From a virus: 64,000 nucleotides of DNA. A model generated the notes under the pieces. It searched no databases. It was not told where the DNA came from and saw nothing but the letters and a program-made list of their open reading frames with translations. Made by a program: the position numbers and the translations under genes. Positions within the stretch are counted from its first letter, which is position 1; each line of letters starts with the position of its first letter. Shown here piece by piece: positions 8,475 to 10,269 of this stretch. The stretch is taken from the UHGV virus genome UHGV-1366603. One strand, given 5' to 3'.

Positions 8475-9137
8475 ATGAGTCAAGAACCAGGAAAATTTAA
8501 TGGGGTTCCTATTAATGAACTTTCTGGCCGCGCTAAATTCGAATACGATAAACTTCTGGAAATGGAGAGCGTACTCCAGCAAGGCCAGAATGTGTGCAGT
8601 GTTTTTACAGAATCGATGTTCCGTCGCCAGGGCTTACCTTTGTTGTCGGGGATGTTAGACGGTACGTTTAACGAAGACACCTGGGTGGATTACGTCGGCA
8701 GCGCGTTTGTTCCGTTACAGATTGTTTCGGATGCTGACCATTCTAAACTGTTATTCACTATCCCACCGCTGCTGAATACAGGTCGTTCTCTTCAACATGT
8801 TGAAGGTCAACCCTCTTTAACGGAAGAGACGGAAGCTATTCGCCAGACGGCTGATATCATCTCCGAAGTGGGTGAGCAGCAGTTGCACCAGATGATCGAT
8901 TACACGTTAGACGGTATCGAGAGACTGTCGTACGAAGAAAATGCACTGCGGGCAAAAAGAGTCATCGATCTCTTAAACTGGATTTTCCGTCGTTACCAAG
9001 TTAACGGTCAACTTCCTTATCCAGAAGGGTTGGAAGAACTTTGCAATCAGATTGAAGGTAAAAGTAAACCTGCTCAGGTTGTAGAGAAGAAACCTGAACC
9101 CGTTAAAACAAGACGTTTCGATGATTACGATTACTAA
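8475..9137 (+). CDS. hypothetical protein
   Basis: RBS gagga before ATG; overlaps the next gene. Confidence 0.8.
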   Translation: MSQEPGKFNGVPINELSGRAKFEYDKLLEMESVLQQGQNVCSVFTESMFRRQGLPLLSGMLDGTFNEDTWVDYVGSAFVPLQIVSDADHSKLLFTIPPLLNTGRSLQHVEGQPSLTEETEAIRQTADIISEVGEQQLHQMIDYTLDGIERLSYEENALRAKRVIDLLNWIFRRYQVNGQLPYPEGLEELCNQIEGKSKPAQVVEKKPEPVKTRRFDDYDY

Positions 9138-10269
9138 TCCTCCGCCGAAACCTGCGGGCGTCAAACGTATCTTTTCAACAGGCGATGTACATCTCTTGCA
9201 TCGCCGTGTACCGACGTGGCACATTGTTAATGTGTTGAAAGAGACGTTGGTGAAGTTTGAAAACACGATTGACGCTATTTATATAGCTGGTGATCTATTT
9301 GATGATTCCCGGCACTTGCGGCAGGAAGATTCTCAAGAAGCCATAGGGTTTTTAACTTGGTTGTTGTTCTGGGCTAAAAGCACCAATACGGCAATCCGTG
9401 TACTGGAGGGAACACCGTCCCACGATCATAAACAGTCAAAAATTGTCGAGGAGCTGAATTCAGCCGTTGGCGCAGATTGTTTGTATCTGGATAAGATTGG
9501 TGTTTTCTACGACGAGGCACTTGATGCCACGATTGGGTGGGTTCAGGACGAGTATAAAGCCCTGGGCTCGGAGACGATTGACGCCACCGCAACGGAAAAG
9601 GAAATGGCTGAGCTTTTAGCCACGCGCGGTATAGAGCAGATGGACTTCTGCTTTATGCATGGCTGTTTTCAGTTTCAAGTTCCTGTTGAGTCTACCCGTT
9701 TTTTCCACACTGATTTTTGGGAACCGTTAGTCAAGCATTTGATTATCATTCACCACGATCATCGTCGAAAACAGTTGGGTAAGATTCGTGTACCAGGCAG
9801 TCCCGATCGTCTGGTAATGGGTGAAGAAGAGGACAAAGGCTTTGCTATTGTCGATTTCACTCCTGAGTTGGCCAGGGATTATTTTCTGGTTAACGAACGC
9901 GCTTGCCCGCAAATAAAAATTGCGGCAGAAGAAGACTACGAATCGCAGTATGCGAAGTGTCTCAAGGCGTTAGAGTATATTGATACTCACCCGTCCTACG
10001 AGATAGGGCGGTTGGAAATTGAATATTATCCTGATTCTCCATTGGCCGAGGCCATTACTAAATGGAAGTCGCAATATTCTTTCCATATTTCAGGCACGCG
10101 TATTCGTACGCCTGAAGAAGAGCAAATTCTCGCAGCGGGTTTCGCTCTCGACGCTGAAGTCGAAGAAACTATCTCTGAGGAGAATGTTGAGTCGATTATG
10201 TTAGAAGCATTAGTGCCGTTTAAATACGATACACAAATTGTTACTGACATTATCAGGAGTATTAAATGA
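9121..10269 (+). CDS. calcineurin-like metallophosphoesterase, SbcD/Mre11-like nuclease candidate
   Basis: Ordered phosphoesterase motifs STGDVHL (GDxH), IAGDLFDD (GDxxD), EGTPSHD (GNHD-like), FMHGCF, IIHHDH. Confidence 0.55.
   Translation: MITITNPPPKPAGVKRIFSTGDVHLLHRRVPTWHIVNVLKETLVKFENTIDAIYIAGDLFDDSRHLRQEDSQEAIGFLTWLLFWAKSTNTAIRVLEGTPSHDHKQSKIVEELNSAVGADCLYLDKIGVFYDEALDATIGWVQDEYKALGSETIDATATEKEMAELLATRGIEQMDFCFMHGCFQFQVPVESTRFFHTDFWEPLVKHLIIIHHDHRRKQLGKIRVPGSPDRLVMGEEEDKGFAIVDFTPELARDYFLVNERACPQIKIAAEEDYESQYAKCLKALEYIDTHPSYEIGRLEIEYYPDSPLAEAITKWKSQYSFHISGTRIRTPEEEQILAAGFALDAEVEETISEENVESIMLEALVPFKYDTQIVTDIIRSIK

What the first reader, a model, noticed from the sequence alone, without database searches (positions are those of the whole stretch)
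9121..10269. SbcD/Mre11-like phosphoesterase with no obvious Rad50/SbcC partner nearby
Motifs GDVH, GDLFDD, GTPSHD and HHDH indicate a calcineurin-like nuclease of the Mre11/SbcD/T4 gp47 type. None of the flanking ORFs (8475..9137, 10266..11102) is long enough or shows Walker A/B motifs expected of the ATPase partner. The partner may be encoded elsewhere, the enzyme may work alone, or it may use a host partner.
Basis: partly seen in the sequence, partly recalled or inferred. Interest (0 to 1): 0.4.

Follow-up and report, generated by a model that had tools for sequence, protein, structure and literature searches.

The report
Jumbo-phage SbcD nuclease; partner encoded far away
This gene is the ordinary Mre11/SbcD-type DNA-end nuclease that nucleus-forming jumbo phages all carry, and its Rad50/SbcC ATPase partner does exist but sits about 86-132 kb away in the same genome, an arrangement already described for phages SPN3US and phiKZ.

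Summary
ORF 9121..10269 (+) encodes a 382-aa metallophosphoesterase containing all the quoted motifs. No SbcC/Rad50-like gene lies next to it or anywhere in the 64-kb window.

The interpretation also holds, but it is not new. The window is the first 64 kb of a ~223-kb chimallivirus (nucleus-forming jumbo phage) genome from a human gut metagenome. It is syntenic with Salmonella phage SPN3US and Erwinia phage Asesino. The protein is the ortholog of SPN3US gp27 and phiKZ gp65. A family profile matches Thermotoga Mre11 over its full length (E=5e-11), and a pLDDT-92.8 model finds only Mre11/SbcD structures as its top 12 hits.

The partner is encoded elsewhere. In a closed 98.5%-identical genome, an 834-aa SbcC lies 86 kb away one way round the circle and 132 kb the other. 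It has a Walker A motif, a CPxC zinc hook, a Walker B motif, a D-loop and an H-loop. SbcD and SbcC homologs each occur in 290 phage records with nearly the same genus distribution. Thomas et al. 2016 already described this "drastic separation" and showed SbcC to be essential.

Interest is low. Side observations:
- The family has a conserved non-canonical motif III, GTPSH[D/E].
- The translationally coupled downstream gene has a FEN-like fold.
- A group I intron splits the nvRNAP beta' gene.

The parts
9121..10269 (+). SbcD/Mre11-family nuclease gene (382 aa). Ortholog of SPN3US gp27 (RefSeq ACQ60_gp239), Asesino gp44 and phiKZ gp65.
   Evidence: ORF. PHROG_100 E=3.3e-63. 66.5% aa identity to SPN3US SbcD, 72.7% to Asesino and 34.8% to phiKZ ORF65. 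Profile against PDB finds Mre11/SbcD only. AF2 model plus Foldseek.
9181..9192 (+). Phosphoesterase motif I, GDVH (D22, H24: metal ligands by analogy with Mre11)
   Evidence: Position. D22 and H24 are invariant in 52 homologs and align with the DWH motif of T. maritima Mre11.
9289..9306 (+). Motif II, GDLFDD (D58: bridging metal ligand by analogy)
   Evidence: G57 and D58 are invariant and D61 is at least 90% conserved.
9409..9426 (+). Motif III, non-canonical GTPSHD in place of GNH[D/E]. The His-Asp pair is kept and the Asn is replaced.
   Evidence: E96-G97-T98-(P99)-S100-H101-(D102) is invariant or nearly so. HMMER aligns LEGTPSHD with LPG--NHD of Mre11. GTPSH[DE] occurs in 107 of 120 homolog clusters and none has GNH[DE]. 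phiKZ gp65 has VEGTPSHD.
9655..9663 (+). Motif IV, MHG (H180)
   Evidence: H180 and G181 are invariant.
9751..9762 (+). Motif V, HHDH (H212, H214; family consensus GHDH)
   Evidence: H212 and H214 are invariant and align with GHIH of T. maritima Mre11.
8475..9137 (+). Upstream conserved gene (220 aa) of unknown function. Its last 17 nt overlap the SbcD start. It is not an ATPase.
   Evidence: PHROG_5171 E=2.5e-71. No Pfam or NCBIfam hit. Weak match to phiKZ ORF64, E=0.004. Overlap.
10266..11102 (+). Downstream gene (278 aa), ortholog of phiKZ gp66, whose start overlaps the SbcD stop (ATGA). It has a FEN / 5'-3' exonuclease-like fold and is not an ATPase.
8018..8045 (+). Terminator-like GC-rich hairpin with a T-run, just upstream of the tightly packed block 8089..11102 (gaps of 2, -17 and -4 nt) that contains SbcD
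   Evidence: This is a consensus match only; function was not tested.

Best explanation
ORF 9121..10269 encodes the SbcD (Mre11) nuclease subunit of a chimallivirus SbcCD complex. By homology it is a two-metal phosphoesterase with an Mre11-type capping domain and a helical C-terminal tail. As in the solved Mre11-Rad50/SbcCD complexes, it is inferred to dimerise and dock onto the ATPase head of a phage-encoded Rad50/SbcC protein. The complex would then process DNA ends and hairpins for recombination-dependent replication and repair of the phage genome, as T4 gp46/gp47 does. The SbcC gene is not adjacent. In this phage species it lies on the same strand about 132 kb downstream, or 86 kb upstream on the circular map, so it falls outside the 64-kb window. 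Such scattering of functionally linked genes is typical of phiKZ-like genomes. Shown here: the family assignment, the fold, conservation of the catalytic residues, the existence and motifs of the partner in same-species genomes, and the co-occurrence of the two genes. Inferred: complex formation, nuclease activity and biological role.
For: Identity of the protein:
- PHROG_100 E=3.3e-63.
- The family profile hits only Mre11/SbcD chains. T. maritima Mre11 is matched over 17-369 at E=5e-11.
- The AF2 model has pLDDT 92.8. Foldseek ranks 1-12 are all Mre11/SbcD, with TMq 0.51-0.58, whereas generic phosphoesterases such as LpxH reach only 0.33-0.37.
- The catalytic residues are invariant.

Genome context:
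- The window is 100% identical to the first 20 kb of the 223,355-bp contig Ga0495776_011139 and syntenic with SPN3US and Asesino.
- It encodes a ChmA homolog 57% identical to Asesino gp039, which was shown to form a phage nucleus (PMC11724907).

Partner:
- IMGVR_UViG_3300045988_078609 is 98.5% identical in DNA and has an identical SbcD protein. It carries SbcD and an 834-aa SbcC on one contig.
- The closed circular record NZ_CP173450.1 (98.5% identical) has SbcD at 132786-133934 (-) and SbcC across the record origin at 219974-221873 plus 1-605 (-).
- That SbcC scores PHROG_77 E=1e-91 and hits Rad50 ATPase structures.
- It has invariant Walker A (GGNGCGKT), CPxC hook, Walker B (LLLDE), D-loop and H-loop residues.

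Co-occurrence:
- tblastn with SbcD and with SbcC each finds 290 phage records with nearly the same genus distribution.
- The two genes are more than 100 kb apart on the deposited maps of phiKZ, Asesino, SPN3US, Goslar, PhiPA3 and 201phi2-1.

Literature:
- The SbcC and SbcD genes are 'drastically separated' in SPN3US, phiKZ and relatives, and the SPN3US SbcC gp186 is essential (PMC5105663).
- Knock-down of phiKZ 065 (nuclease) and of 165 (SbcC-like) both impair infection (PMC12571901).
- phiKZ orf165 tolerates no transposon insertions (PMC12676376).
- SbcCD is practically universal in jumbo phages (PMC7824862).
Against: - The SbcC gene could not be read on the window's own contig. Only 64 kb is held, and the look-ups did not return that contig. 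The partner is therefore shown in genomes of the same species, not in this exact genome.
- Motif III lacks the canonical Asn (GTPSHD), so the metal-site chemistry may differ from characterised Mre11 enzymes.
- The single sequence falls below Pfam and NCBIfam thresholds: Metallophos E=0.043 at 14.7 bits against a cutoff of 21.5, and TIGR00619 at 15 bits against 77.65. It gives no phmmer hit to the PDB. The assignment needs a family profile or the predicted structure.
- No biochemical data exist for any chimallivirus SbcD. Complex formation and activity are inferred.
Confidence: 0.9

Rival explanations
1. The SbcD acts together with the product of the translationally coupled downstream gene (10266..11102, FEN-like fold) as a local end-processing pair, analogous to Mre11 nicking followed by Exo1/FEN-type 5'-3' processing. 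It would do so in addition to, or instead of, working with the distant SbcC.
Against: There is no sequence-level homology to FEN families: Pfam finds none in 50 members, and hhalign against the T4 RNase H family gives probability 0.1. Only E24 and E189 (invariant) and D175 and D224 (at least 90%) are conserved acidic residues, far fewer than the carboxylate cluster of active FENs, so the protein may be catalytically dead. Gene adjacency in these genomes is a weak guide to function, because linked functions are often scattered (PMC5105663). The strict SbcC co-occurrence argues that the canonical partner is used.
Confidence: 0.15
2. The protein works alone or recruits the host SbcC/Rad50.
For: There is no ATPase partner within 64 kb. 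Isolated Mre11 proteins have Mn-dependent nuclease activity in vitro (general knowledge).
Against: A cognate phage SbcC is present in every same-species genome examined and co-occurs across 290 phage records. Phage SbcC is essential in SPN3US (PMC5105663). The phage encodes chimallin. By established knowledge the chimallin shell excludes most host proteins from the replicating DNA, so a host partner is unlikely.
Confidence: 0.03
3. It is a non-nuclease calcineurin-like phosphatase or pyrophosphatase (for example LpxH-like, as one source names a homolog) that has been misnamed SbcD.
For: One JGI record names homolog P0007 'UDP-2,3-diacylglucosamine pyrophosphatase LpxH'. LpxH structures appear in the fold search at E about 1e-5. 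Motif III is non-canonical.
Against: LpxH matches cover only the phosphoesterase core (TMq 0.33-0.37), whereas Mre11/SbcD matches reach 0.51-0.58 and take ranks 1-12. The profile alignment to T. maritima Mre11 runs through the capping domain into the C-terminal helices. The gene co-occurs with SbcC.
Confidence: 0.02

Closest known systems
SPN3US gp27 (SbcD) with gp186 (SbcC); phiKZ gp65 with gp165; Asesino gp44
   Same: These are orthologs: 66.5%, 34.8% and 72.7% aa identity respectively. The local gene order is the same, gp62-64-65-66-67-68-69 in phiKZ numbering. Motif III is the same GTPSHD. The SbcC gene is likewise displaced by about 100-150 kb on the deposited maps.
   Different: Nothing of substance. 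This is an uncultivated or unnamed species, at most 73.5% DNA identity to any phage record in the collection.
Thermotoga maritima Mre11 (3qg5, 2q8u) and E. coli SbcD (7yzo, 6s6v) in Mre11-Rad50 / SbcCD complexes
   Same: The architecture matches: phosphoesterase core, capping domain and C-terminal helices. Motifs I, II, IV and V and the His-Asp of motif III are conserved. The partner has Walker A and B motifs, a zinc hook, a D-loop and an H-loop.
   Different: Fold-level sequence identity is about 13-17%. Motif III Asn is replaced by a T-P-S insertion/substitution. The cellular sbcDC genes form one operon (PMC5105663), whereas here the genes are 86-132 kb apart.
Phage T4 gp47/gp46
   Same: A phage-encoded Mre11/Rad50 pair needed for recombination-dependent replication. 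This is the functional model used for SPN3US (PMC5105663).
   Different: The T4 genes are clustered (PMC5105663). No BLASTP-detectable similarity to the SPN3US proteins exists, and the SPN3US SbcC is about 300 residues longer between the ATPase halves (PMC5105663). That T4 gp47 carries the canonical GNHD motif is my recollection and was not tested here.

Membership tests
Mre11/SbcD nuclease family | Calcineurin-like phosphoesterase motifs I (DxH), II (GDxxD), IV (H) and V (GHxH) | tested here: met
   GDVH, GDLFDD, MHG and HHDH are present. D22, H24, G57, D58, H180, G181, H212 and H214 are invariant in 52 homologs and align with the T. maritima Mre11 motifs.
Mre11/SbcD nuclease family | Motif III GNH[D/E] (Asn metal ligand plus catalytic His) | tested here: inconclusive
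   H101 and D102 are conserved, but the Asn is absent. The family-wide sequence is GTPSH[D/E], found in 107 of 120 clusters, and none has GNH[DE]. HMMER aligns S100 with the Asn and treats T-P as an insertion. Whether Thr or Ser substitutes as a ligand was not testable.
Mre11/SbcD nuclease family | Mre11-specific capping domain following the phosphoesterase core | tested here: met
   The profile alignment to T. maritima Mre11 continues through residues about 240-306. The model shows a beta/alpha domain at 240-327 with pLDDT above 90. Full-length Mre11/SbcD chains outrank core-only phosphoesterases.
Mre11/SbcD nuclease family | C-terminal helix-loop-helix that binds the Rad50/SbcC coiled-coil base | tested here: inconclusive
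   The model predicts helices at 331-342, 356-363 and 371-381 after a lower-confidence linker (pLDDT 59-88). The profile alignment reaches T. maritima Mre11 residue 362. Binding itself was not testable.
Mre11/SbcD nuclease family | Cognate Rad50/SbcC ATPase encoded in the same genome | tested here: met
   It is not in the window. It is present in same-species genomes at 98-98.5% DNA identity. Each gene is found in 290 phage records. It was not verified on the window's own contig.
Mre11/SbcD nuclease family | Mn2+-dependent exo/endonuclease activity | not testable with these tools
   This needs biochemistry.
Rad50/SbcC (the partner, read in L009 from a 98.5%-identical genome) | Split ABC ATPase head (Walker A, signature region, Walker B, D-loop, H-loop) separated by a long coiled coil with a CxxC zinc hook | tested here: met
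   Invariant residues are G36, N38, G39, G41, K42 (Walker A); C411, P412, C414 (hook); S733 and Q736; L761, D762, E763 (Walker B); D769; and S796, H797. Supporting hits are PHROG_77 E=1e-91, Pfam SMC_N precomputed, and P. furiosus Rad50 N- and C-lobes.
FEN / 5'-3' exonuclease superfamily (downstream gene 10266..11102) | PIN-like alpha/beta core with helical arch/H3TH region (fold) | tested here: met
   [not shown]
FEN / 5'-3' exonuclease superfamily (downstream gene 10266..11102) | Sequence-profile homology and the conserved cluster of about 7-8 active-site carboxylates | tested here: not met
   No Pfam hit in 50 members. hhalign against the T4 RNase H family gives probability 0.1. Only E24, E189, D175 and D224 are conserved acidic residues. 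I therefore do not file this protein as a FEN-family member; I record only that it has a FEN-like fold.

The most novel reading that the evidence does not exclude
The chimallivirus SbcD, with its family-specific GTPSH[D/E] active-site variant, forms a conserved expression unit with a FEN-fold protein (the phiKZ gp66 family) that has lost most of the canonical carboxylates. The two would cooperate inside the phage nucleus as a dedicated end-resection or flap-handling module, with SbcC supplied in trans. That would be a phage counterpart of the eukaryotic Mre11 + Exo1/FEN1 division of labour.
Probability: 0.12. Interest if true: 0.45.

Novelty: already known. Interest (0 to 1): 0.1.

Why it matters
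It matters little beyond correct annotation. The gene is a core recombination and repair nuclease of nucleus-forming jumbo phages, and its separation from SbcC has been in the literature since 2016. The practical value is in annotation. PGAP labels this protein, its SbcC partner and all their neighbours 'hypothetical protein' in records where the phage is deposited as an E. coli or Enterobacter 'plasmid'. The single sequence also fails the Pfam and NCBIfam thresholds. A family-specific model that recognises the GTPSH[D/E] motif would fix many annotations. The side observations (the FEN-fold neighbour, and the group I intron in the RNA polymerase catalytic motif) are more interesting than the finding itself.

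Tried and rejected
- Single-sequence searches for the SbcD were uninformative. phmmer against the PDB gave nothing. Pfam Metallophos was below threshold. NCBIfam sbcd and Mre11 models scored far below their cutoffs. A family alignment was needed.
- I tried to locate SbcC on the window's own contig, Ga0495776_011139. The metagenome scan returned near-identical genomes but not that contig. Exact-protein look-ups of the SbcC cluster representatives P0121 and P0123 returned other contigs. The cluster listing did not show a member on a 223,355-bp contig. I settled for same-species genomes.
- I looked for any alternative ATPase partner in the window. The ten longest other ORFs are PHROG families for DNA polymerases, major head protein, DnaB-like helicase, polymerase or unknown function. 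No canonical Walker A motif occurs in any ORF of at least 100 aa. The idea of a hidden local partner is rejected.
- I tested whether the downstream FEN-fold protein is a recognisable FEN by sequence. Pfam on 50 members and hhalign against a T4 RNase H alignment were both negative.
- BLASTP of window 3542..5380 against phiKZ gp54 (ChmA) found nothing. The ChmA assignment rests instead on 57% identity to Asesino gp039.
- The sigma-70 promoter scan found no more sites than in shuffled sequence (18 against 20.3). It is not meaningful for a phage that uses its own RNA polymerases.
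Full report
**What the window is.**
The first 20,269 bases of the window are identical to JGI contig 3300045988|Ga0495776_011139 (223,355 bp). They are also identical to two ENA human-gut metagenome contigs of 223,355 and 223,427 bp. Gene order matches Salmonella phage SPN3US (Seoulvirus) and Erwinia phage Asesino. DNA identity to any phage record in the collection is at most 73.5%. ORF 3542..5380 is 57% identical to Asesino gp039. That protein is the chimallin (ChmA) shown by GFP tagging to form the phage nucleus shell (PMC11724907). The source is therefore an uncultivated member of the Chimalliviridae, the nucleus-forming jumbo phages.

**The observation.**
ORF 9121..10269 (+) encodes 382 aa. 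GDVH, GDLFDD, GTPSHD and HHDH are at residues 21-24, 57-62, 97-102 and 211-214, and a motif IV His (MHG) is at 179-181. The flanking ORFs 8475..9137 and 10266..11102 are real, conserved genes of unknown function, PHROG_5171 and PHROG_3229. They have no ATPase signature. No part of the 64-kb window resembles SbcC:
- tblastn with SPN3US SbcC gives E>=2.
- An HMM of 18 SbcC homologs against all six-frame ORFs gives a best E of 0.032 at 6.8 bits.
- No ORF of at least 100 aa has a canonical Walker A motif.
- The ten longest other ORFs belong to unrelated PHROG families.

**What the protein is.**
The single sequence is weak against general libraries. Pfam Metallophos scores E=0.043, below threshold. 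NCBIfam sbcd and Mre11 models score far below their cutoffs. phmmer against the PDB finds nothing. Within phage space the signal is unambiguous: PHROG_100 'SbcD-like subunit of palindrome specific endonuclease' scores E=3.3e-63.

A search of 5.8 billion proteins gave 244 homologs. A 52-sequence alignment of these has the metal-binding and catalytic positions invariant. The profile of that alignment hits only Mre11/SbcD chains among its top 20 PDB sequences. The best are T. maritima Mre11 structures at E=5e-11; the full-length chain 3qg5_C aligns with query residues 17-369, covering the core, the capping domain and the start of the C-terminal helices.

An AlphaFold2 model has mean pLDDT 92.8 and pTM 0.82. 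Foldseek against the PDB ranks E. coli SbcD (7yzo_A, E=1.1e-13) first. Ranks 1-12 are all Mre11/SbcD, with TMq 0.51-0.58. Generic phosphoesterases (LpxH, Pol delta/PolD small subunits) follow with TMq of only 0.31-0.39. The Mre11/SbcD assignment is therefore well supported, and the alternative of a non-nuclease phosphatase is not.

**One deviation.**
Motif III is GTPSHD rather than the canonical GNH[D/E]. E96-G97-T98-S100-H101 are invariant across the 52 homologs. Among the 120 best homolog clusters, 107 have GTPSH[D/E], others have GTPLHD, GTHSHD or GTNSHS, and none has GNH[D/E]. phiKZ gp65 has VEGTPSHD. HMMER aligns LEGTPSHD with LPG--NHD of T. maritima Mre11. The catalytic His-Asp pair is kept, but the Asn that ligates the second metal in characterised enzymes (established knowledge of the family) is replaced. 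This is a feature of the whole clade, not of this gene. Its consequence is unknown.

**Where the partner is.**
SPN3US annotates a 'putative SMC domain-containing protein' at 168,900-171,410, 147 kb from its SbcD at 21,020-22,168. Scanning IMG/VR with that protein and with the window's SbcD found three contigs that carry both genes. One is IMGVR_UViG_3300045988_078609, from the same metagenome. Its SbcD protein is identical to the window's, and its DNA is 98.5% identical over 7.1 kb.

The same species is also deposited as a closed circular 'plasmid' of E. coli strain 98232 (NZ_CP173450.1, 221,873 bp, 98.5% identity). There SbcD lies at 132,786-133,934 (-). SbcC spans the record origin at 219,974-221,873 plus 1-605 (-). 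The two genes are on the same strand, 86 kb apart one way round the circle and 132 kb the other. In window orientation SbcC should start about 132 kb downstream of SbcD, far outside the 64 kb held.

The partner is a bona fide Rad50/SbcC:
- It is 834 aa and scores PHROG_77 'SbcC-like' at E=1e-91, with a precomputed Pfam SMC_N hit.
- Its profile hits both lobes of P. furiosus Rad50.
- Walker A (GGNGCGKT), the CPxC zinc hook, Walker B (LLLDE), the D-loop Asp and the H-loop His are all invariant.

I could not read the SbcC on the window's own contig. That is the one gap in the argument.

**Co-occurrence.**
tblastn of the SbcD and of the SbcC against 50,697 phage records each returned 290 records, with almost the same genus distribution: Pseudomonas 81, Erwinia 62, Salmonella 24 and 25, Vibrio 23 and 22, Serratia 21, Aeromonas 19, Klebsiella 16, Ralstonia 13. 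In every genome where both positions were listed, the genes are far apart:
- phiKZ: 55 kb and 169 kb.
- Asesino: 22 kb and 171 kb.
- Goslar: 163 kb and 8 kb.
- PhiPA3: 46 kb and 178 kb.
- 201phi2-1: 64 kb and 183 kb.

**What is already published.**
- Thomas et al. 2016 (PMC5105663) identified SPN3US gp186 as the SbcC subunit and showed by amber mutation that it is essential. They named gp27 as the SbcD subunit and gave the phiKZ homolog of gp186 as ORF165. [quoted passage not shown]
- Iyer et al. 2021 (PMC7824862) call SbcC/SbcD practically universal in jumbo phages.
- A pangenome study found the SbcD subunit to be the most conserved soft-core jumbo-phage gene (PMC11448039).
- In phiKZ, antisense knock-down of 065 ('nuclease') and of 165 ('SbcC-like nuclease') both scored as hits (PMC12571901).
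- phiKZ orf165 tolerated no transposon insertions (PMC12676376).

The finding is thus explained and known.

**Mechanism.**
Shown here are the homology, the fold, the conserved active site, the cognate partner and the co-inheritance. The rest is inferred from the solved Mre11-Rad50/SbcCD complexes and from T4 genetics as summarised in PMC5105663. An SbcD dimer would bind the SbcC ATPase head through its C-terminal helices, which the model predicts at 331-342, 356-363 and 371-381. ATP-driven head closure and opening would present DNA ends or hairpins to the two-metal site. End processing would feed recombination-dependent replication and repair. Because the phage builds a chimallin shell (PMC11724907), the complex presumably acts inside the phage nucleus. 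That localisation has not been tested.

**Surroundings.**
The SbcD sits in a tightly packed block, 8089..11102, with intergenic gaps of 2, -17 and -4 nt. A terminator-like hairpin precedes the block at 8018..8045. The order corresponds to phiKZ gp62, gp64, gp65 and gp66. It is followed by the positional counterparts of phiKZ gp67 (ChmC), gp68 and gp69 (PicA/Imp1). The gp68 match is E=8e-10. The gp67 correspondence follows Table 4 of PMC5105663 and the names follow PMC12571901 and PMC12676376; the gp69 correspondence rests on gene order alone.

**Verdict.**
The feature is an already-described core gene arrangement of phiKZ-like phages. Interest is low.

Noticed in passing
window 6825..7137 (+), within the gene formed by ORFs 5468..6967 and 7174..7425: A group I intron (Rfam RF00028, 61 bits against a gathering score of 50, E=8.7e-15, full-length model) interrupts the nvRNAP beta'1 subunit gene, the ortholog of Asesino gp040. 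It sits exactly inside the catalytic NADFDGD motif: exon 1 ends ...IKAPNA and exon 2 resumes DFDGDQLQ. Two same-species genomes (98-98.5% DNA identity) lack the ~350-nt insert. These are IMGVR_UViG_3300045988_095954 and E. coli 98232 record NZ_CP173450.1, where the gene is one 1608-nt CDS. SPN3US also has an uninterrupted gene. Synonymous differences cluster at both exon edges. No homing-endonuclease ORF lies inside the intron.
   Followed up: partly
[not shown]
   Followed up: partly
window 9409..9426 (SbcD residues 97-102): The whole chimallivirus SbcD clade uses GTPSH[D/E] as phosphoesterase motif III instead of GNH[D/E]. It occurs in 107 of 120 homolog clusters and none is canonical. This probably explains why Pfam and NCBIfam models miss these proteins.
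   Followed up: partly
whole window; records NZ_CP173450.1 and NZ_CP134650.1: The same jumbo-phage species (98.0-98.5% identity over 4 kb) is deposited as a circular 'plasmid' of E. coli strain 98232 (urine, Egypt; 221,873 bp) and of Enterobacter ludwigii (gull cloaca; 222,441 bp). All genes under the matches are labelled hypothetical. Its SbcC also occurs on 222-224-kb contigs of Salmonella enterica and E. coli isolate assemblies. This points to Enterobacteriaceae hosts and to carriage of the phage in bacterial cultures.
   Followed up: partly
window 3542..5380 (+): This is the ChmA (chimallin, phage-nucleus shell) homolog, 57% identical to Asesino gp039 (PMC11724907). PHROGs lists the family (phrog_8316) as unknown function, and BLASTP does not connect it to phiKZ gp54.
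   Followed up: yes
window 8018..8045 (+) and 11824..11845: Two GC-rich hairpins bracket the five-gene block 8089..11802. The first is followed by a T-run on the + strand and looks like an intrinsic terminator after gene 7432..8019.
   Followed up: no
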